This document shows, in pieces, positions 137 to 40,700 of a stretch of DNA of 64,000 nucleotides (the stretch's first letter is position 1; each line of letters starts with the position of its first letter). This DNA comes from Yuukianura sp. NJ FZ-2021. Taxonomy: Eukaryota. Under the pieces are notes generated by a model. That model did not search any database. It had not been told where the DNA came from and saw only the letters and a list, made by a program, of their open reading frames with translations. The stretch is from the NCBI GenBank assembly GCA_046563655.1, contig CM102285.1:12276001-12340000 (forward strand), given 5' to 3'. The position numbers and the translations under genes were made by a program.

Positions 137-1131
137 ATGTTAAAGTTTGTAGCCGCTGGAATATTTTTGTGCCTTCTGGCTGCCATCATACAGGGTAAGA
201 ATTTTAGCTCATCGTTTCCACGGAGGGAGTTAGTTAACCTTACCATTATGCTAACTTGCTACTTGCCAACGCTACTTGCTACTTATTATTGCTAATACAT
301 CTTTGTTAATTAGTAATCATGAAGGCAAATTAATAGTTAAGTTAACGATTTTTGAGTAAAGATGAAACGTTAATACTTTTTTCAGGGACGGAGTCTCTCA
401 AGTGCTACAAGTGTCTTAGCTTGGACTGTCCCGAAGGTGGCTTCGGAGAAAAGAACGAAAGACTGTGCCAATCCGTCCGCAGCTTTATCATAACCTCGAT
501 TAACCAATTTTACGAAGTAGGAGTTGCCGGGTACATCGGAGTTTGTCCAGCAAGGGAAGAGACACTTCAATGGACTCTGTTGCAACAGAATCCAACTTCG
601 GAGTGCTCAGAAATCCGGGAAGGAGCGACATGTTCCTTAGGCAGACTTCAAATCCTGACTGGCGGAAGTACTGAGGAACCAGTCGTATCTCATGCAACTA
701 TTCTTGGATGCTTGAAACCAGCTCTTTTGTATCACATGAAGAAGGCAGCACCCAGTAGCAGTGCAATGGCGTGCAGCATTTACAGACAAAATAATACTGG
801 AGCAGCACAGGCCCATTTTGTCCATCACTTGATGCTGGAAAACTGTCCGAAAGCTACTGACTACTGCAATGTCAAGAACTTTTGTGTTCCTTTTGAAGAG
901 AGCGTAGTCAGAGTGTTTCATAGTCGGAAGGTGGATCATTCCTTTGAAAATGGACTGATCATTGGCATAATTGCGCTCATCGTGGTCCTTGTTCTGGTGG
1001 CTTATATTAGTGGAACTTGCGTGAATCCGCTAAGTCGCAGCTCAAATTACACTCCAGCGGTCATGGTCAGAACTGATGAAGAAAATAGTCCTGCAGTGGA
1101 ACTGGATGCCAAAACGAACGTCATTGATTAA
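137..1131 (+). CDS. Cys-rich Ly6/three-finger-like type I membrane protein (exons 137-194, 386-1131)
   Basis: Signal-peptide exon MLKFVAAGIFLCLLAAIIQ ends at gtaag and joins in phase 1 at ttcag to GTESLKCYKC. About 12 Cys including DYCN, then TM segment GLIIGIIALIVVLVLVAYI and a short tail. Confidence 0.7.
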
Positions 1132-1222: not shown

Positions 1223-1308
1223 TCCTAATTGCAGTCAGAGCAGCAGACTTTGTTACCAGATTTACATTAAGTTATTTAATAAAATTGGTTTAATTTTTGT
1301 AACTTTTG

Positions 1309-2682
1309 CTACCTCTCTTCTAAGAGGTCAAAGTTTTTCACTGTGAGGTCAATCCGTTTCACTTTGAATGTAGAAAGGTTAGAATGCTTAAAGTTCTTCC
1401 AGACGTGTGCTTGAATTTGATTCGCAGATAAGAAGGATACTTCCGGAACTCTGATGCCTTCTGTTGGTTGATCTTCCAGCTTGATTGAAACTGTTACAAC
1501 CCTGGAACGTCGCCGGTTCCAGTTGATTTCTTCTTCAATCCGGGTCACCAGCTCTTCACATAATCCTTCAAGGTCATCTTGGAGATCAGTGGCAGTCAAG
1601 GTAGATTCTTCTAAAATTGGAAAATATTCTACACTTTTGGCCATAATTTTTTGAAAATCTTACTTTTAGATCTAAAACTTACTTGGATACTGCTTGGCGA
1701 CATTGATGCTGCTGAAGTATGTCAACTGCGTCACTTTCGCGGAACAACATCCCTGACAAGTACTCAAAAACGCCAGTGCTTGGTCAGGCGAAACCGTTCC
1801 ATTTTCAACTGCGTCGATTGTGTCAACAGTAGCTGCTCCAAGGTCAGCCATCGTTTTGAACTGCTTGGACAAAATCTCTCCAGCTTTTCCACCCAATCCA
1901 GGAACAGAAGTCAACGGAATCTTGTCAGCAATATTCTGGAATCCTTCTTCGTTTGCCACAATCGTCAATCCCGCTGGTTTTCCAAATCCACAAGCCAGTT
2001 TTGCTACTAACTTGTTGTATCCGACGCCCACCGAAGCATGGACGCCAAGATCTTCCCGGATCTTGGTCAGCAGAGCAGACGCCATGACGGCTCCATGGAA
2101 TAATGCTTGCTCTTCTTTGGTCAAATCCTGAATTTGGTCAGCATAAAAAAATTCACCGGTGGATTTTGGCTGGAATGTTGTTTTTGGCCAGAGATGTTGA
2201 TACTTTGGCAGTTCTGGTCCCGTGACCTTTCGGTAAACTTCGTCCGTAAGGTCAACATAGAATTCGTCACAAGATGACATCTCTACTGGAGATGCTGGAA
2301 ACAGTTCTTGAATGGATTGGATTATCTGGTGTGTCAGAGCACGGCGTCCAGTGTAGTCGGGTTTCCCCGTCTTCAGAACCGGAAAACTCAAGAATCTGAT
2401 CGCTGGACATTTGACCATCGCTGATTCCACGGTGTCATTTCTGGAGATTCCAAATTTTTTAGCTGCTGAATTCAAAGATGTGATGCTAAACAAAAAAAAA
2501 TACTTCCAATTTTTAACAAACCGCTTAATCGCTGCAGAGTTCAAAAACGCAACTTACGTTCCCCAGCGATCTCCCACCATTCTTGGTTCATCTTCATCAT
2601 GCGGAATACCTGCCACTTTTTCGCAGATTTGCAAATCAAAACTGTCGACATCGATTAACAGAATGCAGTCGGTGGTCTGCAT
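1309..2682 (-). CDS. Divergent Y-family DNA polymerase, Pol eta-like catalytic core only (~415 aa; exons 2682-2558, 2485-1683, 1628-1309)
   Basis: Motifs ILLIDVDSF, KCP, GKPDYTGRR, SCDEFYVD, SVGVGYNKLVAKLACGFGKP and VPGLGGKAG match Y-family/Pol eta motifs. Both GT-AG introns keep the frame. The C-terminal exon resembles a little-finger domain. Confidence 0.85.
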
Positions 2683-4523
2683 TGTTTCTTCTCGTGTTTG
2701 TCAAAATTTGCAAAACTTTTGAATCCACGACTTAGTTTGAATGGTAAACTTTTGGCAGAATTTTTTCTGATGACCTTTACGTTATTATAGGGGAAAAAAA
2801 TTGCACAACTTTTTTGCACATGAGTTTATTGGCCTAAAGAATCCGGAACCCGGCTTACCGTTATGCTGTAAAACTCGCCGCAAACTTTTTGCCAAAAAAC
2901 GAAGGCCGTTGACGCTTCAACGGAAACTGAACAAGTGAAAGTGGGAGAACTCTTGGAATGGGAGAAATTCATGATTAATCGCTTACGTAATTCCGCATGG
3001 GTATGACGTAAAACGTTTTTAAACACGAAACTGAAACGTTTGCGAAAATTTATGATGCATCAAACATAACATTAACTTAAGCAGCCAAACCTGTGTTGTC
3101 TGAAGTGCTTTTCAAAGATCATTTAGATTTCTACTGGTAATCTCAAAGTGACCACTCTTCCGCCTCCCACTGCTTAAATGACTTAAAGATAATGACACTT
3201 TATTTTTGGTAATCAATTAACTTTCAGGATTTCATGTTAAATGTAATGTTGCTTTTAACGCAAGACTTGCTAAGTGAATTTACTTTACAAAAAAAAAACT
3301 GTAGGTGTCAAAAAATTGTCATTTTAATTAGAAAGCGAAAATGCAAATATGTTAAACTTTCACTTTTACGACAAAGACGTCTACGCATCATTAAAGACAT
3401 TTTGGTTTTTGACAACTTTTGACTTTGATATACACTTTTAACTTCGTATATACAATTAAACGACACAAGACAACGTTTTGGATTCAATTATGTAATTAAC
3501 GACCCTAAGCTTTAATTAACTTTGTAATTTGTAAATTTCACCTACTCTTGCACTGCTAGTAGCACAAGAATAATTTGTGTATGGTAAATCGTTTTAAAAT
3601 GTTAGTTGTAAGTAACGAGTAATGTGAAAACAATTTTGCACTGATTAATTGGAACTTGTTTTAAAAAGTGCTGCTCGTTTTTCAAAGTTTTGAAAAGAGT
3701 TGTGCCATTTATAAGTTATTTTCTTGCGCTAAATAAACTCAATCTATTGTTTCAGTTTTTTTTTATCAATTTTTGCTTTGAACAATTTTTTTTAAAATCA
3801 GTCCATATTCGCTGAAAGAAGACAAATGAAAAATGAAATTATTTATTTTTTATTAATTCATAATAAAAATTAATTCATTTTGAATAATTTACATTACACT
3901 TGTCGCAGAGATTCTAAAAACTGGCAATTAATTACAAAAAATAAGACAAATCCCACTATGAAACCTTGAACCTTAACCTACGCTTACATTTAAAAAGAAA
4001 ATTAAAATTAAAATTTCGTGTAGAATCTTTCTGGATAGATTTTGAAATTATACTTTTTAAATAATTTACAATTAAATTGTAACTTATTTAATTAAAAACT
4101 ATTATTTCAAGTCTACTTATTCCAACTTTCACTTTAAAAAAAAGTTGGAAAGGACAAAATTATGAACCTGAAAACACTTTTGTTGTGCACACAAGAAAGT
4201 AAACACGTTTTCTTGTAACACACGAAAAAAAAATGGTACGCAAACTAAGCATTGTAGTTTACTTTTTTTTTATACTTAAATCATTCTGATTTATATTTTG
4301 AAAACGAAGATGTTCCTGCCTACTTAATTGCTCCCTCTTCTGATTGTCATCTTCAATTACAAAGGACGCAAAAAATTTCAATTATTGTCGTGGTCATTAT
4401 ACCTGTTGAGGAAAATTTAGAAAGTAAAATTTTATGTGACAATTTCGCAAATTAGTGTAAAAATGATTATTACTTACCGTTTTGAATTGGAGTTTTTTTT
4501 AGTTCTTTTGTGGCTTTTGAGTT

Positions 4524-7924: not shown

Positions 7925-8836
7925 ATGAGCAAATTGCAGAAGATCTTTGTGTCTCTTGTTATATTAATTTTGGGAATTTTGAAAAGTAAGTTACACTTTT
8001 TGAAACTTTTCTGAAGACTTACCGTGTTCCGTGAACCGTTGCCTTCCTTTGTATACAATTTACGTAATTTGACAAGAAACTTCATTTTAGGCACAACGAG
8101 TCTCAATTGTTACAAATGCTACCGAGTTGAAGACTGTCCACTGAAAAATTGCTCTGCCTTTTACGGCCTACTTGACACGACCTACCGAGACCACTTTTTA
8201 CTCGAAAAAGACCAAACACTTCCTCTATGTCCACAAAATATCTCCGATGATTCGCTTTGGCGTAAACTGGAAGTGGATGGAACCTGTGGCCGCGGCAGTC
8301 TTTGGAATCAGCCATGCGCAGTATCTGATTTCCAAGTGTCCGGAGTATCCTTGAAAAAGAAGACGTTACATGGAGTGTTCCTTGGATGTCCAAGGGAGAC
8401 TCTCGTTGGATCATTACTTAAACCCGCCAGTGGTCCAATCAAAAGAAGTTACCGATGTGTCACTCGTAGAACGGAGACAATTGACTACGAAGATGGAATT
8501 GTAGATGGGCGACATAGGTTCGTCGACCTCCGGTTGGCCCTGACACTCTGCACGTCCAATTGCTCCTTGACCCCTTGGAAATGCAATATTTGCTTTGGAG
8601 ATGGGTGTATCTGGAGCAACAACACCTTGATTAGAAGACTTGATGATGACGTTGATACGGATCGGTTGATTAATTGGGCATTGTTGGCCTTAGCGGTAAT
8701 CGTTGTGCTGACATTTCTTCTAGCAACGTACTGTGGAATGGAAAAAATAGGACGATTGGATTTGATCATTTCAGAAGACGGAACTATCTATGCCTACCAG
8801 TCACTGATTACTGGAATGGAGTCAAAAGTTAACTAG
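7925..8836 (+). CDS. Second Cys-rich Ly6/three-finger-like type I membrane protein (exons 7925-7985, 8091-8836)
   Basis: Signal-peptide exon MSKLQKIFVSLVILILGILK with a phase-1 intron, then STTSLNCYKC, many Cys and TM WALLALAVIVVLTFLLATYC. Same architecture as 137-1131. Confidence 0.7.
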
Positions 8837-12426: not shown

Positions 12427-14114
12427 ATGGAACATCAATATGCGTATCAACGTGGAGTCAACGTTCCGATACCTACGCATATAAAGGTGGACGTGGACAA
12501 CGTCAACTCACCGGCACGACATCGAGTAGAAGGACTTTGTGGTACTAGGGAGACCGACGAGGTAAGCAAGCAGTCATTTCACCAACTTATTCCACCTCCT
12601 CCGGTCCAGTCAGCATTACATTTCTCAGTGGTGGCGCAAAGAGTGTCCCACCGAAACCGAAGTTCGTTTCATCCTTTTTCAGACATTCTATAATCTGTAC
12701 CTACTTTGTTTTTACCCTGAATTACATTATTGAAGCTGTTGGGCAAGGGTAACAGCACGAGCTGTACTAAACTGTGTTTATTTTCAGGGAACTGTCAACA
12801 TCCGGAGTCCGAACATCAAGGTTGAACCGCAAGGAAACGTAAACATATTTGAGAAGCAGCAACAACTAGCTGGAATCCACCACCATCTTCAAAAACTCAT
12901 GGATAGCAAGGTGATAAAGACACCGCTGGCGATTTTGAATGAATTTTGTACCAGTATCAACGGCCAATTCCATGAAGAAATAGTAAATGCTGGTTCACCG
13001 CATCAACCAAAGTACGAATGTATTCTTCAAGCTCGATTCTTGGATCAGCGATTTCAAGGTATGCTTAAAGTTTGTCACGATCAATAGAAGACTCCTGAAA
13101 TTACGATTTATTTTGCAGCGTCGGGCTTCTCAACGACCAAGAAGGATGCGAAACAGGCTGCCGCCAAAGCACTTCTAATGGAAGTGGGGTACTTGGAATC
13201 TAAGATGGCGTACACACCCACTCAAGCTAAAACACCAACAGTTGATCCTGCCTTGGGTTACGAGCCAGACGTAGAGGGCAATCCAGTAGGTGAGCTGAAT
13301 ACCTTGTGCACGAAACGTCGGGTTCCCCCTCCCATTTACGAGGTGAGTTTATCATTGTCTATTTGTCTATTGAATTAGTCGATTTTCTGATTTTACAAAT
13401 CAATTCTACACTTGTTGTAGGACTTACCGCAAGAAACGTATGGGCGTTTCAAAGTCAAATGTCAAGTTCAAGACGTTTCTGGTGAAGGTAGTGGACCAAA
13501 CAAGAAATACGCTAAACGACTGGCTGCTCACCAGGTGTTAGAAAAACTGCAAGAAATCTCAAGAAAAGCATACGAGATCAGAGCTTCGTATGAAGATGCC
13601 GCTCGGGAGGAAATCTGTAACAAGATGGCTAGCTTTTCAATTAATAATTCTGGAAGACCGGGAATGGACATGACGGACTCAACGGCTCCCAAGCCATTGA
13701 CCGAAATTATGAAATGGATTCATTTTCTCAAAGGAGAGAAAATTCAAAGACTTAAGGTAATTCAATACAAAAGTATTTTGGATCGTTTCAAAATGTTAAT
13801 TGACGCAGTCATTCTTCAGTTTGAAGTTATGGTTTTTTTTTTCATTCTAGGTTCTGACAATGCAAGAGTTGTATGAAAGTGATCAAACGTTAATTCTGTC
13901 CGAACTGGCATCTGAACAGAAATTGAAAATCCAGTACAACGACTTTCCGCCGCACTTGGACGATCCCAATTACAAGTCTGTGTTATCCTTGGGCATTGAT
14001 AAAACTCGGCACGTTTTTATGGGAAGCGGAAAGTCTGTGTCGGATGCCCGTAAGTCAGCTTCGCTCCAAACTTTGGAATTCATCAGATTGGTGACGAGAT
14101 GTAAAATATTTTGA
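12427..14114 (+). CDS. Loquacious/TRBP/PACT-family dsRNA-binding protein with three dsRBDs
   Basis: dsRBD1 KTPLAILNEFC...KKDAKQAAA, dsRBD2 GNPVGELNTLC...GSGPNKKYAKRLAA, and a C-terminal type-B dsRBD GSGKSVSDARKSASLQTLEFIR. The upstream exon 12427-12561 splices in frame to 12788. Confidence 0.8.
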
Positions 14115-14863: not shown

Positions 14864-16401
14864 ATGAAATTTGCTTTGCTTTTCTCCATTTTAGGATTTG
14901 TTGCTTGCACTAAACTGGATGGAGCAGCAGTTCCAAATGGTAAGGTGAATTCAGCATCGAAAATTTTAAGAATTGTGATAAAAATACCTTAAAAGCATTT
15001 GTTGTGTTTGTTTTTAGATCTTGGTAACGATTTGGCTGGATTGTTCGACGGCCCTCGTGTATTCCTGACCGTCAATGCAATAGCTTCAGTTGATCCCAAG
15101 ACTAAGCAGTTTTTAAATCGAATGCTGGAAATCAACTGGTACAACATTGAATTAACCGCTGGAAATTGGATTGGCGTTTTCACTGAAGATCCGAATGCAA
15201 ATCCCTCTGCGAAGCCAGTTTTAAGACTTACTCCTACAGAGGCACAAGGAAGTGTCAAGACGCGTCTTCGCTTTGATGTAATTGACTACCGCGTAACACC
15301 AATTCCAGAAGATGGTTGTATGGGATACTGGATAGCCTACTTCCCAACATCCAGTAGTCCAGTATTGACTTCTAGCTGTCTTCAAGTATTTCCAGATTGG
15401 ATGAAACAAATGGACGCAACTATCCATGGAAAAACGTTAGCCGAAATCATGATTCCTGGAACACACGATGCTGCTGCTTGGAAAACCTACGAAGGGACAA
15501 GTGACGATCTGAACATGGCCATAACGTATAGCCGAAAGTGAGTGACATTTTGTATAACTTTTTCAATTTTTGAGTTTTTATATCGTTTTGTTTTTGTTGT
15601 TTCTAGTCAAGAGGATTCAATTTACACTCAACTGATCCATGGCATAAGATACTTTGATCTCCGAATTGGCCATTATCCGGAGACGCCTGAGAAGTTTTGG
15701 ATCAACCATGGTGAATTTAAGATTCGTCCACTTCAACCTATCCTGGAGGATGTCAAGGAATTTGTCAGTGAACATCAGGAAGTCATCATACTGGACATTC
15801 ACAATCTTCCAGTTGGGTTCTCTGGTACACACGATCCAGCACATTTGGAACTTATTACATTCTTGAATGAACAAATCGGAGGGCATTTGTACATGAAGAG
15901 GTCTGGAGTCAATCCGAAAATGAGCAACTTCTGGAACTCTGGCAGAACAGTGTACTTAACATATCCCACCGAAATTCCAATTGCAGAAGACTTTGAGTTC
16001 CTTTGGCCTAACGTCTACCATGTAAGAATTTTGCATACAGATTTAGCAACATGGTTGACTGCTTCACTAAAATTGAATTTCATTGTTTTTAGAATTGGGC
16101 AAACACAAACAAAGTAGCGGAACTTCACACGTATTTTACAGAAACGTTACCGCAAATCAGTTGTAAAGGAAATCTGTTCTCCGTTATGGCTGAATTGACT
16201 CCAACTGTTGCTGATATCATTCTGCAACCAGAGCTTGGCCTTAGAGGATTTGCACAATTAGTGAATCTTCAGGTGACGGAATGGTTTCGCCAGGAAAGTT
16301 GGTATTCCAGTGCGAATATTGTGGCGACTGATTTCTACTTGGGGAATGACATTATTCAGATGGCCATTATTGTAAACAGGAACAGTGCAACTTGCTTCTA
16401 A
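14864..16401 (+). CDS. Secreted PI-PLC X domain-containing protein
   Basis: Signal peptide MKFALLFSILGFVAC. IMIPGTHDA, QLIHGIRYFDLRIG and FWINHG retain both catalytic His. Also EVIILDIH and ANIVATDFY. Confidence 0.9.
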
Positions 16402-17827: not shown

Positions 17828-18580
17828 TTACGCAAACTCCGCAATGGAGTTGGGTTTCAAGGCTGGGTTTATTCTCTTTTATAGTTTTCCCTTTATAACT
17901 GCGGTACTGTTTTGGCTTTGAATCTTGTTGATTTGGTACACTCCAAATCATTTGCCATTAATGTTACAAGAAAGTTTAAAGGTTTTCCCATTTCTAACTT
18001 AATTATTAATTAGACATTCAAGTGTAATTAATTAAAACCAGCTTGACAGTTCTTTTTCAAACGAATACGATAAGGTTGTATTGTATTTGTATCCGTATCA
18101 TGATGAGAGTGGGAGTTTAGTGTCAAAGTTTCGTCACGCTCACGCCTGCGTGGGAATACAAAATCAGCTGATTGCACGGTGTCTGTCTAGATATGTCATC
18201 TCTTATTTTTGCTTTCTGTGACCTTGATGTCTGCTCCAGTCGTCCAGTCTCCAGCAGTTACTTATCATTTTAGAGGTATCCATTCGTATCTCCTACTCCT
18301 AACCTAACCTTTGGACATTGAACGATACTCTCATCCTTGTTTTTCTGTTGTTGCAGCTTTGGCATTGGATTTGTGACAAATTAATCACCGAGTAGCACGA
18401 GATCGCCGATTTCAAGTACGTTTGCAATTTTAACCACCAGAACAGGAGCAGGTTAACCTTTATAAGAGGATCTGGATTCTAAGCGGTACATATTTCAATT
18501 TCAGTTCGTGTTCCAGTAAAGAAGAGACTTCTTCAACTAGACAGGTACACTCGGAAAGAGAAAGAAGCTGCTGAATCATC

Positions 18581-20887
18581 ATGACTCGAGCATACGATAT
18601 GGTAGTATTTGGTGCAAGTGGTTTCACTGGCCAATTCGTGGTGGAAGAAATCGCAAAGCTTCTGAAGGATAAGAAAGTGGAGCCTTTTCGTTGGGCTGTG
18701 GCTGGACGATCGAAGTCTAAACTTCAGGACGTTTTGAAACAAACATCAGAAGTCACCGGTTTGTCCTATTGCATAGCAGCGCCTGCAATTGTTTGCTTTG
18801 TTGTACTTGTACTAATCTTGGTTTTGATTGCAGGATACAATGTGTACGACATTGATATTTTGGAGGTGGACATCACCGTTCCAGACACTATCCATGAAAT
18901 GGCAAAACAAACTACGGTTGTGGCGAATTGTGTTGGTCCGTATCGATTCTATGGTGAAACTGTAGTCAAAGCATGCATTGAAGAAGGAGCTCACCATATC
19001 GATGTTAGCGGTGAACCACAGTTTTTGGAACAGATGCAGCTTTTGTTCAACAAGAAGGCGGAGGAGAAAGGTAAGGCCACGCATCAGTAATATTTCCAGA
19101 TTTTAAATGCAATTAATTGCACATTCATACAATACTTAGTTAGCAGATTTGCTGTTAAATGAGCCAATTGAATTTCTTAGGTGTGTACGTGATTGGAGCT
19201 TGCGGCTTTGATTCTATTCCTACTGACATGGGAGTGTCGTATTTGAAGAAGAAGTTCGACGGTACTGAAATCAATTGAAAACTCGTCTACCATCAATTCC
19301 TAACTTAATTGAAAGTCGATTTATAACTACGCTTCTTTCGTTCAATGTACAGGGAAAATCAATTCGGTCGAAACCTATGTGTGTGTTGGGGACGCTGAAT
19401 CTCAAACCACGGTAGCCTATAATATGAAATCAAGAAACCATGCTTCTTTTTAATTCGCAAGTTGCAGAATCGCCCATTATAGCAGTCGTTATTCCTCAAC
19501 TTTTAGCCAATACTTTTATGTTATAGGCCGGCGGGGCTTCCATTCACTACGGAACTTGGCAGTCAGCCATCCATGGCGTAGCAGCGTCTAAGGAACTTGG
19601 ACCACTTCGTCGCCAACTTTATCCAGAAGTCGTGCCGAAACCGAAGTTCAAACTGGCTCACCGGTAAACATCTTTACAGCTCATAAATGTTCGAATGAAG
19701 TACGTTTCGGACTTTTAACTCAAACTTGAATGTAATTTTAGGCCAGTTATTCACTACAGCGATGTCGTGCAAGCATGGTGCTTGCCTTTTCTATTTGCTG
19801 ACAAATCAATTGTCACACGGACTGAGAGGCACTTCTACTATCAAACCAAGGAACGACCAATTCAAATCAACACTTACATCAAGATCGGAACCTTCATCAA
19901 TGCCTTGGTTCTGCTGATTGGCGGCATTATGTTTGCAGTGATAGCTCAGTTTAAAATTGGACGACAACTCTTAGAGAAGGTAAAGAAATATTTTCAAGGT
20001 TTGTATTAAACGATATGTGAAAATGTTTGATGAAATGATAAATTATTGTGTTTGGATATTTAGTACCCACGGTTTTTCTCAGCGGGAGCAGTGAGTCACG
20101 AAGGCCCTTCACGAGAACGAGCAAACAGTCCTTTCAGTGTCACAATCGTTGCAGAAGGCTGGAAAGAAAGATTGGCCGAACCAACTGACCAATACACTGA
20201 GAAGCCCAACAAGAAGATGACCTTGAAGGTATGACTTTGTTAACGTAATTTAAGACTACTACAGTCGAGTTTCCCTTTTATTCCATTTGCCAAATACAAA
20301 ACAAATTGCAATTGGACTACACTGGGGTTAGAAAATTACATGAGTCTGAAGTCAAATTGTCATTGGCAATTCCCCAATTTGCCATTTGGCGTTTCATTTT
20401 GCCAGTTCACCGCCAATGTACGGGTGCGAGTTTTGTACTTCTCAATTGTATTTTGTTTTGTATTTGGCAAATGGAATAAAAGGGAAACTCGACTGTATAT
20501 TCAATTGTTGAGCACATACAATGCCATTTTGATTTAGGTCAGTGGAATGAATCCTGGCTATGGTGCTACTTGTCTCGCGATGGTGCAGGCTGGACTCACA
20601 ATTATTCGCGAGAAACACCTCATGCCTCAAAAGTAATTTTGAATCTAAACTTTATTTTGAAGTTATTCAATTAAGTATTTATGTTTCAACTGCAACTGTA
20701 GCAATTACTTTACTCAAGCTAACCGTAACTACTACTAATTAACTGCCTTAATTAATACACCGTGCCACAATTAACAATTGTTGAATTTTTCAGGGGTGGA
20801 GTGTACACTACTGGAGTCGCCTTTGAAAACACGACAATCGTTGAACGACTACACAAAACCGGCCTTACTTTCACCATCCAAAAATAG
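18581..20887 (+). CDS. SCCPDH: Saccharopine dehydrogenase-like oxidoreductase (multi-exon)
   Basis: YDMVVFGASGFTG, WAVAGRS, NCVGPYRFYGE, DVSGEPQF, CGFDSIPTD, HYGTWQSA, NPGYGAT and GGVYTTG. Confidence 0.93.
20262..20495. mobile_element. Tc1/mariner/pogo-type MITE (234 bp) in an SCCPDH intron
   Basis: TIR of about 50 bp, cagtcgagtttcccttttattccatttgccaaatacaaaacaaa, with its reverse complement at the right end and TA on both sides. Confidence 0.9.
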
Positions 20888-31700: not shown

Positions 31701-34700
31701 TGTAACTTTCTCCATGTGATTCATAAGGGCGTGAGATGAACTGGGTTTCATTTCACGACATTGACTTCCCGGCGGAATCGCTGAAGGGCTGGTACTAATT
31801 TCGTTGTAGACGATTTCTTCGTAAGGCACGACACAAATCACAATGCATTCCTAAAAAAAATATGAGGGTACGATTTTTTGAGGTTTTGATGTATAAGTTG
31901 TAAAAGTTATAAATTATGAAAATTATATTCATCCTCTTTTATAATCCTAACGGGTCTGGAGCGAAGCCCCAGCAAGCATGCGCATTATGTTTGTAAAAAT
32001 TATAGAGATTCTAAATTCAGGAAATTATAAATTATAAATTATAAAAGTTGTAAATTATAAACTATGGTCATACGTACACTGAAGGGAATATTCTGTATCC
32101 TGTATTCTCTTTCGCTAGGTGCCAATGGCGGTCCATGTCGAAACGTATCTTCTCCAAACATTCTGTAGATGATTCGGAAGCCACCTTGTTTCGTACTTTC
32201 CCATTGTACAAGAATTGATTCTCCGAGTCTCTCTATGTCAGTGATTTCAATATCAGAAGATTCTGGAAAAGCTAAATCGTTTGATGGTGGAGGATGGACA
32301 TGGACATGCTTGTTGTGTTGCGTCGTTTCTGGAGTACTTGGCTGTGCAGTACTAGTTTTTACACGTTGAATAGACGTTTTGATTGCAGATACCGTTGTTG
32401 TCGTCGTGGTCGTAGGTGTCGGAGCAGGAGTCACCCGTACTTTTACAATACTTGCAGGCTTTGCCGAAGTTCCAAGTCGTGGTCCATGGCCGCTGATTAC
32501 AGGGATTCTGGAATCATCAAAATCTGCACCAGGTTTAAATTCATAAGTCGGTTTTTTGGTGGTAAGAACTGTAGATAAAGCGGGATTTGTGGCTTGCGTC
32601 GGCGTGCTTTGTAAAGATCTGCCGTTATGTGCGGATGAAATGATGGTACTTGTACTGCTTGTGGTGGAAATGACGGGTTTCGGAGCAGATTTGTTAACAT
32701 GTTGATTTGCGGTTGACGACGTGATTTGTGTGAAATTCTTTGTTGTGGTATTTTGATTCTGAGATTCTGACGGAATTAGTAGAAATTGTTTAACAAGTGG
32801 TCTAAATGTACTGGCTTTACTTTCTGCTTCTTCTGTCAAGTCTTGATAGAAAGGTGAATCGTCCATGTCTCCAATTCCAGCATTTTCGGCAGCATTTTGA
32901 GTAGATGGGGATGGTTTGTTGATTGCTTTTTGCAAAACGTCACGAATTGAGTCAACATCGTGCGAGACGTTGACGTTGATCGAATCAGTTCCAGTACTCC
33001 GATGTGAGTTGCCTAACGTTTCATTTTTACCGTTTTGTGTTTGAAGTTGAACTACTTTCGGTTGCTTCGATTCGGTTCTGGTTAGCGGTTTTGCGTCAAT
33101 CACTCTCGTAATCGTTGAAGTAACGGTAGACATTGAAGAAGTCATGTTCGGTTCGCAGTGGAAATCTGAAGCAGTTGATTTGCGAAAATTCAAAAAAAGA
33201 GTTAAGCTCTTAATATCTAATTTCTGTGGTTTCGAAATAATTTGGATTTACCTTCGTGTTTCAGTTCATAGAAGGTCAAACGTCGCAGTTCTGGCGGATT
33301 ACCGCAAAATTGTGGATTTCTTTCTCTGCTCGTAATTTGGAGGTCATACCACTGAACCCAGTCGGCAATCCACCGAATCCGACAGTCACAACTGAGAAAG
33401 CGACCGCCAAGACTTAATCCGCGCAACGTTTTGTTCAGATTTGCGAACGGTTCGACAGGAAGCGTAGGCAACGGATTTCCATCTAATGCGAGAAGTGTCA
33501 GCTTCGTCAGTCCCTCGAAAGCATTCTGCGGAAGTTCTGTTAGCAAATTGAAACCGAGATCCAGTACCTAGGAAGATGCTGAATTTTAGCACTGAAATCG
33601 CTTTTTACTGAGCATTAGAAGTTTAGAGCAACCTTAAGTTCGTGGAGATACTCGAGAGCATCGCGCGGAAACTGGGTCAGAAGATTGTTTAGAAGGCTGA
33701 GAGAGCTCAGGGTGCTGCTGATTTTTCTGAAAGCTGACGATGGTACGTTCTGTAACAAGTTTCTTTCGAGGTTCAGCGCTGAAAGGGAATGGACGTTTCG
33801 GAATGGACTTGGATCGAGTTCCCGAATTCGGTTTTGGGCCAAGTCCAGAAATCCGAGCAGCGATAGATTCCCAATGGCTTCGGGTACTTGAGTCAGCCGA
33901 GTTCCTTTGAAAAAATTCGGGATTTAATAGAAGCTGAAAAGAGTTTTTAGAGAAGTTACAAACATCTAATGCCCGTATACATAATGACGGTTCACCCGTA
34001 ACCTACGGATCAGGATTTGGTGAGACCGATCCGGGGGTCAGGATCACACTAATCCGTGAACGGTATACATAATATAATCTTGAGCGGTGGATTTGTAAAT
34101 CCGGTTCACCTGAACGTGATCATCGGATTACTCATTTTTACATTCCACATTTAAATACTTCAACAACAATGTATTATGTTGATTAAAAATGTGACAAGTT
34201 TAATGCTCCTTTTATTTTCAGGTGGCAAAGTTTTCAAACTTTCTATAACACAACACCATTTTTGTTGTGTTTTATTAAAGTAATTAACGAAATAGTTAAT
34301 GATTCAATTAATTTCTGAACAAAATAGGAAACTAATGGGACAAAATGCGGCCATGCTGTGCATATACTGCGCAAGCACTGCGCAAGTACTGCGCAAGCAC
34401 TGCGCAAGCACTGCGCACTGCGCAAGTACTGCGCAAGCACTAGGCACTGCGCACTGCGCAAGTACTGCGCAAGCACTGCGCACTGCGCAAGCACTGCGCA
34501 CTGCGCACTGCGCAAGCACTGCGCAAGCACTGCGCAAGCACTGCGCACTGCGCACTGCGCAAGTACTGCGCAAGCACTGCGCACTGCGCAATAACTGCGC
34601 ACTGCGCAAGCACTGCGCACTGCGCAAGCACTGCGCACTGCGCAAGCACTGCGCAAGTGCTGCGCAAGCACTGCGCACTGCGCAAGCACTGCGCACTGCG

Positions 34701-37700
34701 CAAGTACTGCGCACTGCGCACTGCGCAAGCACCGCGCACTGCGCAAGAAGTTGAAATTTATATAAAAACTTTAGTTCTATAAATTCTAAAAGTTTTTTCT
34801 GACATTTATAACGCAAACTCCTTAATAAAACTGAACGCTTAACTCGTGGGAAAAGAATATACTAAACAAAAATTAAAATAATTCCAGTTGAATCAAGTGG
34901 TGAACCTACCCCTATACCAGGGTCACGAATTTTGATCCCGATCATAGTGATCCGGTTTACTTTTTTGTATTATGTATACGAATATAACCCTGAGCGAGGG
35001 ATCAAACAAATTTTTGATCCGAGGTTTACGTGAGCGGGTCACCGATGACCTCGAGACTCATTATGTATAGGGATCAGGGTGATCGGTTCAACTTTTCATG
35101 ATCGGATCACCGTGATCCGGCATTATGTATACGAGCATAAGATTCTTGTTTTAGAAACCTTTGAGATTAAGATTTTTAAGTGAATTTTCAAGGCCCTTGA
35201 AAGCAGTAGGTTCCAGTTGGAGATTGTTGTCATTTAGCTTGAGAGTGGTAAGTTTTGTAAGTGTTTGAAAAGAGTTGTTGGGTACTTGAGTGATCCTATT
35301 GTGACTGAGGTCTAAGAGGCTTAAATTGACAAGATTAGCTAATGGCCTCTTAGGAACTTCCTTCAGTTGATTTGTAGTGAGACTTAAGTGCTTCAATGTA
35401 GATTCTTGTCCTTTGAAGGCTTCGTCATGAAGAGACTTAATTCCACACCCAGACATTTGTAAACTTGTCTAAAAAATGAAAAATAGAAGCTCAAGAGAAA
35501 AATCGGGTAAAAATTGAAAACCGTGAAAACGAATTTCGACTTTGATGTAATTTGAAAGTGATTCATTGCATAACTCGTAAAGGTGCAACCAGTTGCAAAA
35601 TCTATGCTAAAGTGGACAGACCACCTTCATTACTTTCACTCTCTGAATGGAAATTTAATTGGATTCAGGAGCAGGTTTTAAATTGCTTCGAGGTACAAGA
35701 ACGATTTTAAATTTGAGTCATGAAAAATGAGAGGGGATTTTTGAAAAATGAAAATTTTGGTTTGAGTTTAAAGGAAATTGAATCTGTTATGGTCATTTTA
35801 TTCGGTTTTTTAGGGTGATAGAGGTCAAAAACCTCCAGGAACAGTAGGGATTTGATTGGCAGTTCAATTTAACATGGATTTTTGACAATGCCCGGGGCCA
35901 AATGAGGGTCAAGTCGACGGGGTTTCTGTTTATAGCCAATTTGTTAAGGTTGATGTGTTCCGGGTTTCAAAAAAAAATCTAGTTTTCAGACAGGAGATGG
36001 AAGAAGAAAATTGAAATTTGGCCATACGATTTTGACATCTTTGAATATGGAAGGAGGGACTTGTCCATTTGAATCCGTGACACGACTTGAATTCAGATAG
36101 AGCAGTTCAAGATTTTCTACTTTCCCACGGTGACTGAGTAGCGAAACTAATTGAGATGCTTCGATATCGTGACATTGGATGCTGAGGAGACCACTGGGTC
36201 CTGGAGACTTGGCACATTGACAACGGGATTTAAGGGCGGAGGGAACGCGGATGTCTTTGGTCCAGGGACACTGATACTGATGCTGCGTAGAGTCTTGAGA
36301 AGTACTGCTTATGACTATCCCTTGAACGGAAATTAGAATGAAAAGTGTGGAGAATGGTGGTGACAAGCAGGTTTGTCTCCATTTTCGTTTGTAATAAGGA
36401 AGACAGTTGGACTGTGACGCTGAGGAAGTCTTCATCCTCTTATTGTTGATTGGATTCGGTGTTAGTTCATACAGGAAATGGCCAAATCGTAAAAATCCTG
36501 TAACAATTACAATAACAAAGAGGTTAGTTGGAAAATTGCAGAAAAAAAAATCAGGCTAGTCATGGATTTTTGTTGTAAGGTGGAAAATTTTAGTGAGATT
36601 TTTGGTTCTTGGATGAAAATTGTTTTAAGGATTTGCTGATTTCCCTATTTAAAATTTAAATTACTCTTCTGGTTTTTTGGTCGAAATTTCAATTTCCAAC
36701 TTTTTTGGTTAGGATGATGAGGAAGATGATGTTTTAAAATACTTTTGGTTGTTTGTTTTATTCTCTTTTTGCAGTATTTGGTTGAGTGAGTTCATTGAAT
36801 TGACAAGCAGATGTCGAAGTCTAATTTGGATGTTGATGATGATGGTGGCTGGCAGTGGGAGAAATTAAGGAGTACATAAAAACGAAGTGATTTTTTCTCT
36901 TATGCTGTCGCAGTACTTTTATGCTTTTGATGTCCAAGTATTTGTCTGGTACTTTATTTTCGAAACTGATGGTTTTAATCGAAATACGTTCCGCCCATAC
37001 GAGCTGAGGAGAAAGTTCGCAGAATGACTCGATTTTTTGCTTGTCGGAAGATGCCTAAACCATGTTTTAAAAATATACAACACGGAAATTAGCATGTTGA
37101 AACTAAGATTTGATTTTTTGCCATTTCAAATTTTTGGGGATCAAACTTAGCTATATTTCATGCAAAAGTCAGATAGCATAGCCTCCAGTAGCATTTATCA
37201 AATGTGGAAACGGTAAAATTCAAAAATTTTCTTCTCTTTTTTTTTTTGCATCGTTCAAACAATTCCATTTAATTTGCATCTCAGATGGAAATTAAATTGA
37301 ATTGTTTGAGCATTGTCAATATAATTATGCTTGGATGACTTACGGTAGTGACACGATTTTTTCTGTTGCTTTGTTGTTTACTAACTAAGAGACAAAAGAA
37401 ATGTAAAGAACAATGGAAAGTGTCAAATCTTGTGGAAGATAATTCATTCCCAATGTCTTGAGAATTAGTACTAGCTTCTTTTTGAATTGAAGCCAAAAAG
37501 AATTGAATTGAACCTTCTAAATCATCTCCGTCTGCTCACCATGTGTCATCTTCGTCAGGGAAAAGTAAGGAATGGTTGATCACAATTTAATTCAATGAAT
37601 GTAATTTGTCTGCCATGTCATTCGTCACAAAATGCTTTCTCTTTTTGAATTTAAAGGATATCAATTCTAATGCTAAATTGTAAGTGTAACATATGCCAAA

Positions 37701-40700
37701 TTGTAGGAAAGAGATGAGGCAAATGATGGATTGATGACATGAACAATTACGCACAAAAACGGAGTTTTAGCTATTGAAATTTTGGACTTTCATTTTCCAA
37801 GTTCTTTTGTTCGGTTTCTTCAGGAAGTGAATTTACTGCATTTCTCTGTACTTTGAGATCTTTTTTTGAATATTATTGACATGTACTGAATTGAATTTGC
37901 CTAATTTAGAAGCAATTTTGACCTCCAAAGACCAAAATTGAATTGGATTATTGTTTGGTTGTCTTTATAATCAATCAGTAGACTACGTTAGATTAATCGA
38001 TTTTTAAGTTAACAATGAACTTAACTTTTAATTTCATTTTTTGCTGAAAACTTTTATTGTCTTCTCTTGTTAAACTTTTAAAAGTTAAATAGTTTCCTGA
38101 GCACGCATTTCCTTTAATTGCCAATCAGTAACAACAACGTTAACTTAAAGTGGTTTTTGCACTGACCTCGCTCTGGCCCACGATATTTAGTTACGATTTC
38201 GATGATTTGTTGTGATAGAAAAAGGAGCATGCTGGCCTAACTAACGTAATGTCAGATTTGGTGTACCTTCTACAAACGATTTAAGAAAAACAAAGTGTGT
38301 AAGGCAGTACATTGTTATTATTGCCAGTATTGTATCGAAATTGGCGTGACGCACGGTAGCCTGAGTACACTTTGTTTGACTTTCTTGAAATGGAATTTTT
38401 TGCGAAGTTTTTATCCTCGCTAAATTAGTGTTTTGCAACAACTGTAAGCTTTTTGACTAAATAACGCTGTTACGTAACTCTATTTACCTACTAACAAACC
38501 CTACCAAAAGTCCTAAGTCATGAACTGTAACAGTAAACCACTTCTGCATTGAGCTAGATTGAGTCCGAAACGCAATTTAAAATCTCAATGTCATTTGGTT
38601 TTGCTTCTGTAGGTAGGAATGTTCCTTAAAATGACGAATTAGTGCATGCTCGTGTCACTTGAAGATCATTTAACACCTTGACTTGCACTTTGACAATGCT
38701 GTGCAATACTTTAGACTTGGAGTGAGGAAACATAAAGTAATTAGTTGCAAGATTTTTAATCTTGACGCAAGGATCGTGATCTTAAGAAGGTGCTACCTGA
38801 TTACTGTCATTTTAAATCAGGCAATATGCAGGATGTTAACCTTGCCAAAAGCATGATCTTTGATTAATTCTTGAATGAATAGGGCATGAGTGAGTGATTG
38901 TGATCAATTATCACCTGTATTAACCCTAATGATATGGAATGTTGAGCATTTAAGAGATTGGAACAAGTTGCAATTTGCAATTTCCAACTTGCACAGTGTG
39001 ATTGTTTTTTAAAGGATTTCCTAATAGCTCAGACTTGTAATAAATCTTGAGTGACCTCCTAGGGCAAGTCAATTCAATCGAACTAATTAAAAAAGTTGGA
39101 GTTAAGAAATGAAATTTACTACTATGCAAAAACTAACTTGTCCAAGTCTAATTTCGCAAGAGGGACGATCTTAACACTTTATTGTTAAGAGTAACTAATG
39201 AGTAATTTAGAATTTTATGGTTATGCTGAAATTACATTGGGTTTGAATTGCTTCTTTGGTACTTAAAACGTTTTAGGAAGTGATTTCATGATCATGACTT
39301 TTGAATTTGGTAGGTTTTAATCAGGCAGAACTAACTAACTATGTTTTGTTGGATTTTTGGTGTAGGGAGAAAGTTTAAAAGCTAAGGAAATATGTAATGT
39401 GTGCAACAGTTACAGTTTTTTGTTCCTTTTTTGCTTTAATAATATCACTGGTTACATATCGACTTCGACACGCCAAATGACTTTAAACACACACGGAAGT
39501 AGTGTGATTATTAAGTCCGAGCGCGTTTTAGAAAGATTGCGTCTGATTTTTACACATATAAAGTAGAGCTGTTGAGAAAAGTGCAGGAAGGAAGCTTATA
39601 AAACGTTCAGAAGCAGAACTTTAACAAACTTTCTTGACGCTTTTTTGACATATTGATTATTGTTTTTACACTTTTTGAGTTGAATTGGATGAAAATTTGA
39701 TTGATGTGTGATTTAAGTTTTTTAGCAAGGGGATTTGTTGTGTTGATTAGGGAAATGTCGTAGGGATTTTTTTGAACAAGCTGAGGATAAAATGAAAAAT
39801 GGTTTAAAAAAACTGTGAGTCTTGAGGCTTTTTTTTGTAATAAAATGGTTGTAAAAATTTGAAAGTTGGATTTTTATAACGGCATGCCAGTGAGTCTTGT
39901 TATGTTAAGCGTAGTTTAAAATATGTCTCATCACTTGGGTTGAAATCTGGGTAGAAAAAGAAAATGACAGGATTTAGGGTAGGAAGCGGACCGGAAATTG
40001 TGGAGCAAATTTTAATCCGCCTCATCACCACTTCAGTTTTGTTCTTTTTGTACCCAAATTATCACTTTGTCTCACGCTAAAACAAAAGTTGCCTGAAAAG
40101 CTGAAATTTCTTGAAATTTTTTGAAGAATTAGGTTAAAAAAATTTTTTAAGTTACTGGGAATACGTGGATAAAATTTTACTGCGTTGGGTTTGAATTCCA
40201 AGCTTGCGGAAGTTATGTGAATAATGCACTGAAGCTCGAAGATCGAGTTTCATTTTGAGATCAAAAACTTTCGTTTTGGTTTTGTTTACACTTTTTTGGT
40301 CGAAATTTCGCAATGAATTTTGGCTTTGAACTTTTAATTTTGTTTTAATTTGATATGTTGGGTGAATGACTCCGGTGTGATTTCCGTTTTTAGTTTGTGT
40401 GACCTCTAATGCTTGTAACAGGACACTTTAGGAGATGTAATCTGACATTTTTCATAGTTTTTTTTTCTAATTGATACTTTGTAACGCTGTTTAATCCGTT
40501 TACCTTGGAATTTGACGCTTCAGAAGTTGAATGTCCTGTTAGTATGGTGTTGAATGTTGAAGAGTTTCCGGTTCAGAAGTTATGTTCAAGGTGAAGTAAT
40601 CGGTTTAACAACGAAAACGCGAGAACAAATTTTTATGGGTCTTAATGCTGGATTTTCTAACACTTTTAGGTTTCACGTGAGAATCCGTTGGAATCACTTC

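What the first reader, a model, noticed from the sequence alone, without database searches (positions are those of the whole stretch)
2558..2682. Pol eta-like polymerase with Asp at the steric-gate position
Seen: exon 1, absent from the ORF track, encodes MQTTDCILLIDVDSFDLQ. Known: Y-family motif I is D-x-D-x-F-[FY], and the last aromatic residue (Pol eta F18, Pol iota Y39, Dpo4 Y12) excludes ribonucleotides. Mycobacterial DinB2 naturally lacks it and incorporates rNTPs. Here that position is Asp, while the metal-binding Asp and the SCDE motif are intact. Inference: this may be an animal Y-family paralog with altered sugar selectivity (rNTP incorporation or priming) or some other changed chemistry.
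Basis: partly seen in the sequence, partly recalled or inferred. Interest (0 to 1): 0.75.

Follow-up and report, generated by a model that had tools for sequence, protein, structure and literature searches.

The report
Pol-eta-like polymerase with acidic gate
An intact three-exon animal gene encodes a stripped-down relative of the damage-bypass enzyme DNA polymerase eta in which the aromatic residue that normally keeps RNA building blocks out is an acidic one, a change shared by a small group of relatives known mostly from springtails.

Summary
On the minus strand, exon 1 (2682..2558) starts at the first ATG after an in-frame stop and has a GTAAGT donor. It joins in frame to two further exons, giving a 409-aa Y-family polymerase. 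The motif-I anchors align without gaps to Pol eta, and Asp16 (GAT, 2637..2635) falls on the steric-gate column. The catalytic Asp11, Asp115 and Glu116 are present.

The Asp is not an error. The protein belongs to a strongly supported, fast-evolving clade nested inside animal Pol eta. Named members are two paralogues in Orchesella, one gene in Folsomia and a degenerate one in a mite. All 7 other clade representatives with an N-terminus and an intact catalytic Asp-Glu pair carry Glu at the gate. In contrast, 110 of 110 other Pol eta-type sequences and 105 of 105 Pol IV-type sequences carry Phe or Tyr.

The clade consists of the catalytic core only, with no UBZ or PIP tail. Its pocket is remodelled in other ways too.

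What the carboxylate does is untested. Precedents point both ways: Glu acts as a gate in A-family polymerases, while Asp reads the 2'-OH in the viral RdRp DX4D motif. Expression could not be checked. This is a new variant of a known kind.

The parts
2558..2682 (-). Exon 1 (125 nt; codons 1-41 plus 2 nt). It encodes motif I, LLIDVDSFDLQ.
   Evidence: The ATG follows an in-frame stop and the donor is GTAAGT. tblastn with P0017, P0001, P0046 and P0011 starts here.
2635..2637 (-). GAT codon for Asp16, at the steric-gate position (human Pol eta F18).
   Evidence: Sequence, column table, HMMER alignment of the homologue to human Pol eta.
2650..2652 (-). GAT codon for Asp11, the motif-I metal-binding Asp (human D13).
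   Evidence: This column is D in 109 of 109 Pol eta-type rows.
2486..2557 (-). Intron 1, 72 nt, GTAAGT...TTTAG.
   Evidence: It contains an in-frame TAA at its 5' end.
1683..2485 (-). Exon 2 (803 nt): the rest of the fingers, plus palm and thumb. It includes SSCDEFYVDLT and NKLVAKLACGFGKP.
   Evidence: Pfam IMS PF00817 at 66.3 bits against a cut-off of 23.2. Human Pol eta is the best PDB match at 4.8e-16.
2263..2268 (-). Codons GAC GAA for the catalytic Asp115-Glu116.
   Evidence: These are invariant in 14 of 14 clade rows.
1611..1682 (-). Intron 2, 72 nt, GTAAGT...TTTAG.
1309..1610 (-). Exon 3 (little finger / PAD) ending in TAG at 1311-1309.
   Evidence: Pfam IMS_C at 20.0 bits against a cut-off of 20.7. 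The blastp alignment to P0001 runs to window residue 404 of 409.

Best explanation
The locus is an intact gene for a stand-alone Pol eta-type catalytic core of 409 aa (fingers, palm, thumb, little finger) with no UBZ, PIP or Rev1-binding tail. It belongs to a divergent, previously undescribed Pol eta-derived clade found in springtails and other unnamed, probably soil, animals. In this clade the aromatic steric gate has been replaced by a conserved carboxylate: Glu in the relatives, Asp here.

The protein most likely is still a metal-dependent nucleotidyl transferase. The three catalytic carboxylates, the triphosphate-binding Lys/Arg positions and the NK-AKLA-KP motif are all kept.

The nucleotide pocket is rebuilt, however:
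- gate Phe/Tyr becomes Asp
- the Pol eta Y52 equivalent becomes Ser
- the Q38 equivalent becomes Asp
- Ala after the catalytic Asp-Glu becomes Phe
- the polar-filter position is Ser instead of Ala

I infer that discrimination against ribonucleotides is weakened or changed relative to Pol eta. Asp is too short to stack under the sugar as Phe does, and removing the gate side chain in human Pol eta (F18A) raises relative rNTP use about 100- to 1000-fold. Without the tail, the enzyme would not be recruited through ubiquitinated PCNA as Pol eta is.

Shown: the gene structure, clade membership, the conserved acidic gate, and retained constraint on the active site. Inferred: catalytic activity, the direction of the sugar-selectivity change, and the cellular role.
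For: Gene model:
- Three exons with canonical splice sites, reading open for 409 codons.
- Homology covers window residues 3-404.

Family:
- Pfam IMS on exon 2.
- PDB sequence search gives Pol eta at 4.8e-16, against Pol iota at 4.7e-9 and Dpo4-type at 7e-7.
- The AlphaFold model of homologue P0001 has pLDDT 94.3 and pTM 0.91. All 50 listed Foldseek hits are human Pol eta catalytic core, with TM 0.78-0.81 over about 445 columns.

Clade:
- The window plus 18 relatives form one branch with SH-aLRT 100 in a 64-row tree.
- The branch has SH-aLRT 99 with 14 clade rows in a 46-row tree. P0017, P0010, P0159, P0006 and P0103 were left out and a different Pol eta sample was used.
- FastTree on 128 rows recovers the same clade.

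Gate residue:
- Of 153 proteins in hand, 118 have an N-terminal motif I. The gate letters are Y 98, F 12, E 7 and A 1 (one regex match, P0153, was spurious).
- All 7 Glu and the 1 Ala are clade members.
- 105 of 116 Pol IV-type proteins matched the motif, with F 68 and Y 37.

Constraint:
- Per-column entropy in the clade tracks that of Pol eta (Spearman 0.66, 271 columns).
- Mean clade entropy is 0.83 in the 32 near-invariant Pol eta columns, against 2.04 elsewhere.
- D115, E116, D120, S193, G195, K204, K211 and P212 are each 14 of 14.

Literature (passages read):
- F18 is the Pol eta gate. F18A raises the rNTP/dNTP efficiency ratio from 0.0004-0.003 to 0.3-0.7 (PMC13716900; PMC2817480).
- A natural gate-less Y-family enzyme, MsDpo4 with Leu14, incorporates rNTPs (PMC6846668).
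Against: - There is no biochemical evidence and no expression evidence for this organism.
- Residues invariant in the 109 Pol eta-type rows are lost here: the Q38 equivalent is Asp and the Y52 equivalent is Ser. Their roles in template and triphosphate contacts are recalled, not tested.
- The branch is very long (2-3 changes per column).
- Its nearest relative, P0017, has Asn at the first catalytic Asp. The mite member P0010 has Gly for the catalytic Glu and Ala at the gate. Catalysis is therefore dispensable in at least some members.
- In A-family DNA polymerases a Glu or Gln at the same spacing is itself the steric gate (PMC7862312, PMC6846668), so a carboxylate does not imply rNTP use.
- The polar-filter position, which tightens sugar selection in Pol IV (PMC6846668), is Ser here. 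That argues for retained selection rather than relaxed selection.
- Only 8 clade rows with an intact Asp-Glu pair (the window included) have an N-terminus.
Confidence: 0.42

Rival explanations
1. It is an active, ordinary dNTP-specific bypass polymerase. The carboxylate serves as the steric gate, as Glu/Gln does in A-family DNA polymerases, helped by the restored Ser polar filter and the new Phe after the catalytic Asp-Glu. Only recruitment differs from Pol eta, because there is no tail.
For: - In A-family enzymes a Glu/Gln lies beneath the sugar and excludes the 2'-OH (passages read in PMC7862312, and PMC6846668).
- Ser occupies the position equivalent to Pol IV Thr43 (together).
- Ala to Phe at position 117 is found in 11 of 14 clade rows, against Ala in 106 of 109 Pol eta-type rows. 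This could refill the space left by the lost aromatic.
- The catalytic residues are kept.
Against: - The window has Asp, one methylene shorter than the Glu of the A-family and of its own relatives.
- The Y-family pocket is open, and in human Pol eta loss of the aromatic alone opens it to rNTPs.
- I had no coordinates with which to test whether Phe117 reaches the sugar.
Confidence: 0.24
2. It is a catalytically dead or decaying duplicate: a fast-evolving Pol eta copy kept, if at all, for a non-catalytic role such as DNA or lesion binding, or as a decoy. The acidic gate would then be a by-product of relaxed constraint.
For: - End branches are very long.
- The Pol eta-invariant Q38 and Y52 equivalents are lost.
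- P0017 has Asn at the metal-binding Asp and P0010 has Gly for the catalytic Glu.
- All regulatory motifs are lost: 0 of 13 clade rows have a UBZ-like motif, against 70 of 92 long Pol eta rows.
- No expression evidence could be obtained.
Against: - The reading frame is open across three exons with canonical splice sites.
- The window protein itself keeps all three catalytic carboxylates, K51, R57, K204 and K211.
- The acidic gate is kept in all 8 clade rows that have an N-terminus and an intact Asp-Glu pair, even though mean column identity is only 29%. That is selection, not drift.
- Column-wise constraint mirrors that of Pol eta (rho 0.66).
Confidence: 0.28
3. It is an artefact: the Asp codon is an assembly or sequencing error, or exon 1 is wrongly called, and the real protein has an aromatic gate.
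For: There is no read-level or RNA evidence for this locus.
Against: - Seven homologues from independent sources have Glu at the same column.
- No other exon with a motif I exists in the window.
- The splice junction aligns without an indel.
- The same protein carries the other clade-specific substitutions: Ser14, Cys114, Phe117, Leu215 and Pro237.
Confidence: 0.03

Closest known systems
DNA polymerase eta (POLH / Rad30A), catalytic core
   Same: It is the best sequence and fold match and the tree places the clade inside animal Pol eta. It has the same four-domain core, and motif I D-x-D-x-F, motif S-x-D-E, NK-AKLA-KP and the R61 equivalent are all kept.
   Different: - Gate Phe/Tyr is replaced by Asp.
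- The Q38 equivalent is Asp and the Y52 equivalent is Ser.
- Ala117 is replaced by Phe, and the I/V114 equivalent by Cys.
- There is no UBZ, PIP or Rev1-binding tail: 409 aa against a median of 708 aa.
- Identity is only about 27-29%.
Short 'DNA polymerase eta' proteins of springtails (Orchesella cincta ODM91094.1 and P0001; O. dallaii CAL8100778.1 and P0002; Folsomia candida XP_035715905.1)
   Same: They belong to the same clade and have the same core-only architecture. They share the acidic gate, Phe after the catalytic Asp-Glu, a hydrophobic residue in place of the Gln of K-Q-T, and Pro in place of Arg before L-G-G-K.
   Different: They carry Glu rather than Asp at the gate. Identity to the window protein is only 24-32%. 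The window groups with an unnamed metagenome protein (P0017), not with the named springtail branches, and the window's organism is not identified.
Mycobacterium smegmatis MsDpo4
   Same: It is a natural Y-family polymerase without an aromatic gate. It has Leu14 and incorporates rNTPs (PMC6846668, passages read).
   Different: It is a bacterial DinB-branch enzyme with an aliphatic rather than acidic replacement. It also lacks the polar filter (Cys47), whereas the window protein has Ser at that position.
A-family DNA polymerases (Glu/Gln gate) and viral RdRp motif A (D-X4-D)
   Same: A carboxylate lies five residues after the catalytic Asp of the first palm motif. The window has D11-x4-D16 and its relatives have D-x4-E.
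   Different: These are different polymerase families, so this is an analogy only. In A-family enzymes the Glu excludes rNTPs (PMC7862312). In RdRps the second Asp hydrogen-bonds the 2'-OH and selects rNTPs, while reverse transcriptases have Phe/Tyr there (PMC4634563). The two precedents make opposite predictions.

Membership tests
Y-family DNA polymerase | IMS (impB/mucB/samB) catalytic domain above Pfam's gathering score | tested here: met
   Exon 2 translation scores 66.3 bits against a cut-off of 23.2, E 3.7e-18.
Y-family DNA polymerase | Three catalytic carboxylates (motif I Asp; motif III Asp-Glu) | tested here: met
   D11, D115 and E116 align to columns that are invariant in 109 Pol eta-type rows.
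Y-family DNA polymerase | Little-finger / PAD domain (IMS_C) | tested here: inconclusive
   Exon 3 scores 20.0 bits against a cut-off of 20.7. The domain is clear in homologue P0001 (27.5 bits) and its model matches the full Pol eta core. The window protein aligns to P0001 through residue 404.
Y-family DNA polymerase | Aromatic steric gate (Phe/Tyr) directly after the motif-I Phe | tested here: not met
   The window has Asp16. Outside the clade, 110 of 110 Pol eta-type and 105 of 105 Pol IV-type sequences with a recognisable motif have F or Y.
Pol eta subfamily (POLH / Rad30A) | Closer to Pol eta than to Pol iota, kappa or Rev1 by sequence, fold and tree | tested here: met
   sequence; fold of homologue P0001; trees. 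The long-branch caveat was flagged by the tree tool.
Pol eta subfamily (POLH / Rad30A) | Invariant Gln38 and Tyr52 equivalents (human numbering) | tested here: not met
   These columns are Q in 109 of 109 and Y in 109 of 109 Pol eta-type rows. The window has Asp38 and Ser48. The Arg61 equivalent (R57) is kept.
Pol eta subfamily (POLH / Rad30A) | C-terminal regulatory region (UBZ zinc finger, PIP box, Rev1-interacting FF) | tested here: not met
   The protein ends at the little finger. A UBZ-like motif is present in 0 of 13 clade rows, against 70 of 92 Pol eta rows of 560 aa or more (regex scan).
Acidic-gate short Pol eta-like clade (unnamed; defined here) | Asp or Glu at the gate | tested here: met
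   The window has Asp16. Seven other clade rows carry Glu.
Acidic-gate short Pol eta-like clade (unnamed; defined here) | Phe after the catalytic Asp-Glu, and a hydrophobic residue replacing the Gln of K-Q-T | tested here: met
   The window has Phe117 and Leu215. Phe117 is found in 11 of 14 clade rows.
Acidic-gate short Pol eta-like clade (unnamed; defined here) | Core-only length and monophyly with the named members | tested here: met
   The window protein is 409 aa. Clade support is SH-aLRT 100 and 99.
Ribonucleotide-incorporating polymerase (functional class) | Measured rNTP incorporation | not testable with these tools
   This needs primer-extension assays. The sequence precedents conflict.

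The most novel reading that the evidence does not exclude
The clade is a natural ribonucleotide-using branch of the Y-family. An aromatic-to-carboxylate switch at the gate created a D-x4-D/E motif convergent with RdRp motif A. That would turn a Pol eta core into a stand-alone enzyme that prefers or freely uses rNTPs, for example to lay RNA patches or extend RNA primers at damaged or dNTP-starved DNA in soil micro-arthropods.
Probability: 0.2. Interest if true: 0.85.

Novelty: new variant of a known kind. Interest (0 to 1): 0.62.

Why it matters
The aromatic steric gate is treated as close to universal in Y-family polymerases. The only natural exception I found in the papers I read is a mycobacterial enzyme with Leu. 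Here a whole animal clade has kept a carboxylate at that position across very deep divergence, together with co-ordinated changes elsewhere in the nucleotide pocket and loss of the PCNA/ubiquitin-targeting tail.

This provides a ready-made natural experiment on how sugar selection is encoded in the Y-family active site. The question is whether a carboxylate acts as a gate, as in A-family polymerases, or as a 2'-OH reader, as in RdRps. A simple primer-extension assay on a 409-aa protein would answer it.

It also flags that proteins annotated as 'DNA polymerase eta' in springtail genomes are not ordinary Pol eta.

Tried and rejected
- RNA evidence: the look-up of sequencing runs for window 1250-2760 listed no RNA holder.
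- Source genome: none is held. The questions of paralogue versus orthologue, and of further copies, could not be addressed.
- Exon 1 alone (41 aa) against PDB sequences gave no hit at E up to 10. The gate alignment therefore rests on the multiple alignment and on the homologue's HMMER alignment.
- The word-indexed search with the exon 2 translation found only 4 proteins.
- The same tool with the clade profile was swamped by bacterial Pol IV and added no clade member.
- The metagenome scan returned only the contig of P0017 (L001). That contig is a 1401-nt record with an intron-less full ORF and a 110-nt leader. It may be transcript-derived, but I cannot tell.
- No closer orthologue was found, so dN/dS could not be computed. 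The window and L001 are too divergent, at 33% amino-acid identity.
- Organism identification: a neighbouring SCCPDH-like exon gave at best 57% identity to an unnamed protein, 41% to a centipede protein, and about 47-50% to fish and molluscs. Rfam and tRNA scans of the window found nothing. The organism remains unidentified.
- Viral or mobile origin: 25 related loci were found in IMG/VR, and I examined 7 of them. Four match the motif regex with Tyr or Phe at the gate. Two more (L004, L016) show an aromatic by eye. One (L013) lacks the N-terminus. None is acidic. I rejected this origin.
- Literature: searches for polymerase eta together with springtail names listed 15 of 863 papers, none of them containing 'polymerase eta'. 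A search for Y-family, polymerase eta, duplication, arthropod and paralog found nothing relevant. The two springtail genome papers do not mention DNA polymerases. The review PMC6261451 is not held.
- I did not fold the window's own spliced protein, because it is not a contiguous translation of the window. I folded homologue P0001 instead.
- The model tool returns no coordinates, so I could not test whether Phe117 fills the gate space.
Full report
**What is in the sequence**

The feature lies on the minus strand. Reading the reverse complement, an ATG at 2682-2680 follows an in-frame stop. The stop-to-stop ORF 2554..2700 is only 48 aa, which explains its absence from an ORF list.

Exon 1 runs 2682..2558 and ends AC|GTAAGT. 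The donor itself supplies an in-frame TAA, so the intron must be removed to make a full-length protein. A 72-nt intron ends TTTAG|C at 2486|2485. Exon 2 (2485..1683) ends A|GTAAGT. A second 72-nt intron ends TTTAG|A at 1611|1610. Exon 3 (1610..1309) ends in TAG.

Joined by coordinates in a script, the three exons give 1230 nt and a 409-aa product beginning MQTTDCILLIDVDSFDLQ and containing SSCDEFYVDLT. Asp16 is GAT at 2637-2635.

**Family**

- The exon 2 translation matches Pfam IMS (PF00817) at 66.3 bits against a cut-off of 23.2. Exon 3 is borderline for IMS_C, at 20.0 bits against 20.7.
- Against PDB sequences, exon 2 hits human Pol eta at 4.8e-16, Pol iota at 4.7e-9 and Dpo4-type enzymes at about 7e-7.
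- tblastn with clade and Pol eta proteins finds only this locus in the 64-kb window. There is therefore no alternative first exon with an aromatic gate.

**Is the gate alignment right?**

I aligned the window protein with 18 relatives and 109 Pol eta-type sequences in MAFFT. Window D11, D13, F15 and Q18 fall on columns where all 109 rows agree, and D16 falls on the gate column. Part of that agreement is built in. The 109 rows were chosen with a regex that required an aromatic gate, and it also fixed D13 and F15.

Of the 153 proteins in hand, 119 matched a motif-I pattern with a free gate letter. One match (P0153) was spurious, because it lies after the S-x-D-E motif of an N-terminally truncated protein. 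The remaining 118 have Y 98, F 12, E 7 and A 1.

HMMER independently aligns homologue P0001 to human Pol eta so that its Glu lies on the second Phe of the motif. That residue is F18, the gate named in PMC2817480 and PMC13716900 (passages read).

Among 116 mostly bacterial Pol IV-type proteins, 105 matched the motif, with F 68 and Y 37. The 11 that did not match are truncated or variant, and those that are visible still show an aromatic.

Three N-terminally incomplete clade rows (P0007, P0008, P0051) put K, M and F in the gate column. They lack both motif-I Asp residues there, so I treated those letters as non-homologous leader residues and dropped them.

**A conserved clade, not an error**

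A profile search of 1.84 billion representatives returned 7976 Y-family hits, of which only the best 150 are visible. The top hits form a group of short proteins of about 390-500 aa. The seven Glu-gate representatives are:

- P0001 and P0002 (Orchesella cincta and O. dallaii)
- P0058 and P0082 (a second paralogue in the same two species)
- P0102 (Folsomia candida, annotated 'DNA polymerase eta', with several isoforms and a neighbouring copy on the same contig)
- P0012 (unnamed)
- P0017 (unnamed)

The mite Oppia nitens protein P0010 (919 aa) has Ala at the gate and Gly for the catalytic Glu. The N-terminally truncated fragments P0005-P0009, P0038/P0159, P0051, P0103, P0141 and P0147 belong to the same group.

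Trees:

- With IQ-TREE (LG+C20 PMSF, quick search) the window plus 18 relatives form one branch with SH-aLRT 100. It is nested in animal Pol eta, and the window is sister to P0017 at 95. The tool flagged that pairing as two long branches meeting.
- I rebuilt the tree without P0017, P0010, P0159, P0006 and P0103 and with a different Pol eta sample. The window stayed inside the clade at SH-aLRT 99 (14 clade rows among 46).
- FastTree on 128 rows agrees.
- The best blastp partner is P0017, at 32% identity over 364 aa and E 3.5e-47.

The window protein also carries the clade's other derived states:

- Ser14, where Pol eta has Cys in 108 of 109 rows
- a polar residue before the catalytic Asp-Glu (Cys114, where Pol eta has Ile or Val)
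- Phe117, where Pol eta has Ala in 106 of 109 rows
- Leu215, where Pol eta has Gln in 107 of 109 rows
- Pro237, where Pol eta has Arg or Lys

An assembly error at one codon cannot explain this pattern.

**Architecture**

Clade proteins stop at the little finger. A UBZ-like C-x2-C...H...H motif is present in 0 of 13 clade rows, against 70 of 92 Pol eta rows of 560 aa or more. The median Pol eta length in the set is 708 aa.

I modelled P0001 with AlphaFold using a 100-row alignment. The result has pLDDT 94.3 and pTM 0.91. All 50 listed Foldseek hits are human Pol eta catalytic-core structures, with query-normalised TM 0.78-0.81 over about 445 columns. The family is therefore a bare Pol eta core.

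I folded P0001 rather than the window protein because the spliced product is not a contiguous translation of the window.

**Is it under constraint?**

No close orthologue or coding DNA was available, so dN/dS could not be computed. As a substitute I compared per-column entropy between 14 non-redundant clade rows and 109 Pol eta rows over 271 well-filled columns.

- Spearman rho is 0.66.
- In the 32 columns that are nearly invariant in Pol eta, mean clade entropy is 0.83, against 2.04 elsewhere.
- D115, E116, D120, S193, G195, K204, K211, P212, G244 and G287 are each 14 of 14.

The N-terminal columns could not be included because fewer than 10 clade rows have them.

The acidic gate is kept in 8 of the 9 clade rows that have an N-terminus. 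The exception is the mite protein P0010, which has Ala there and has lost its catalytic Glu. Mean column identity across the clade is only 29%. This pattern argues for purifying selection on a polymerase-like active site and on the carboxylate itself.

There is evidence the other way:

- P0017 has Asn for the first metal-binding Asp, and P0010 has lost the catalytic Glu.
- The Pol eta-invariant Q38 and Y52 equivalents vary in the clade and are Asp and Ser in the window.
- The branches are very long.

**Mechanism**

What is shown is a Pol eta-type core that keeps its catalytic triad, the Arg55 equivalent (as Lys51), the Arg61 equivalent (Arg57) and the two Lys residues of the NK-AKLA-KP motif. 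At the gate it has a carboxylate. The functional roles assigned to these human residues are recalled from the Pol eta literature and were not tested here.

The papers I read (passages only) support the following:

- The Y-family gate is Phe or Tyr, and its backbone contacts the 3'-OH (PMC7862312).
- F18A in human Pol eta raises the rNTP/dNTP efficiency ratio from 0.0004-0.003 to 0.3-0.7, while lowering dNTP efficiency (PMC13716900, Table 1 as quoted).
- MsDpo4, with Leu14, naturally incorporates rNTPs.
- A Ser/Thr 'polar filter' (Pol IV Thr43) adds to sugar selection (PMC6846668).
- A-family enzymes use Glu/Gln beneath the sugar as the gate (PMC7862312, PMC6846668).
- In plus-strand RNA virus RdRps, motif A is D-X4-D and its second Asp hydrogen-bonds the 2'-OH. 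Reverse transcriptases have a bulky aromatic gate there (PMC4634563).

The window's D11-x4-D16 has exactly that spacing. The precedents therefore allow either outcome.

My best reading is that the protein is an active polymerase with weakened or altered sugar discrimination. Asp is short, and losing the aromatic alone opens Pol eta to rNTPs. I put this at about 0.4. The alternatives are a still dNTP-specific enzyme at about 0.24, a non-catalytic or decaying copy at about 0.28, and an artefact at about 0.03.

By my alignment, the polar-filter position is Ser here and Ala in Pol eta (108 of 109 rows). This pulls toward retained selectivity, and I count it as evidence against my own reading.

**What could not be done**

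- No RNA run was listed for the locus.
- The source genome is not held.
- The organism is unidentified.
- Names could be looked up for only 30 of the 150 representatives. The canonical Pol eta rows among those came from insects, mites, rotifers, molluscs and an annelid. No canonical springtail Pol eta was seen among them, which does not show that none exists.
- The supplements of the springtail genome papers were not examined. Their main texts do not mention DNA polymerases.
- I found no paper describing this clade.

**Verdict**

The functional interpretation is plausible but unproven. This is a new variant of a known kind (Pol eta), of moderate to high interest because it can be tested directly.

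Noticed in passing
L001 1-1401 (protein P0017): The window protein's nearest relative has Asn in place of the first metal-binding Asp of motif I, while keeping Glu at the gate and the Asp-Glu pair. The contig is an intron-less full ORF (111-1388) with a 110-nt leader. It may be transcript-derived.
   Followed up: partly
P0010 (Oppia nitens XP_054159717.1, 919 aa): This mite member of the clade has Ala at the gate and Gly for the catalytic Glu. It also has a long C-terminal extension. It is probably a non-catalytic derivative.
   Followed up: no
window 346-1131 (+) and 8015-8836 (+): Two single long ORFs encode Cys-rich proteins with a C-terminal hydrophobic segment. They are distant paralogues of each other (22% identity, E 9e-7) and have no significant Pfam match. 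The first lies convergent with the polymerase gene and ends about 180 nt from its stop codon.
   Followed up: partly
window 34366-34738 and 59496-59807: Two minisatellite arrays with related GC-rich units: periods 11 and 18 at the first site, and period 19 with 16 copies at 95% matches at the second. Both create long spurious ORFs on both strands.
   Followed up: no
window 47436-48201: A 386-bp unit is present as two tandem copies at 94% identity.
   Followed up: no
window 36001-44000: This is a low-GC stretch (0.34-0.35) with a sustained strong positive GC skew of 0.17-0.28. It is unexplained.
   Followed up: no
window 13421-13876, 15542-16117, 18575-19090, 45697-46401 (all +): Neighbouring exons encode a dsRNA-binding motif, a PI-PLC X-domain-like segment, a saccharopine-dehydrogenase-like (SCCPDH) N-terminus and a Rab3GAP catalytic-subunit C-terminus. 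This is an ordinary animal gene context. The best SCCPDH match is only 57% identical and unnamed.
   Followed up: partly
Folsomia candida proteins P0102, P0154-P0158: Several annotated isoforms and two slightly different copies lie on one 2-Mb contig. An apparently hydrophobic insert sits in the palm region of the gene models. This may be a mis-annotated intron.
   Followed up: no
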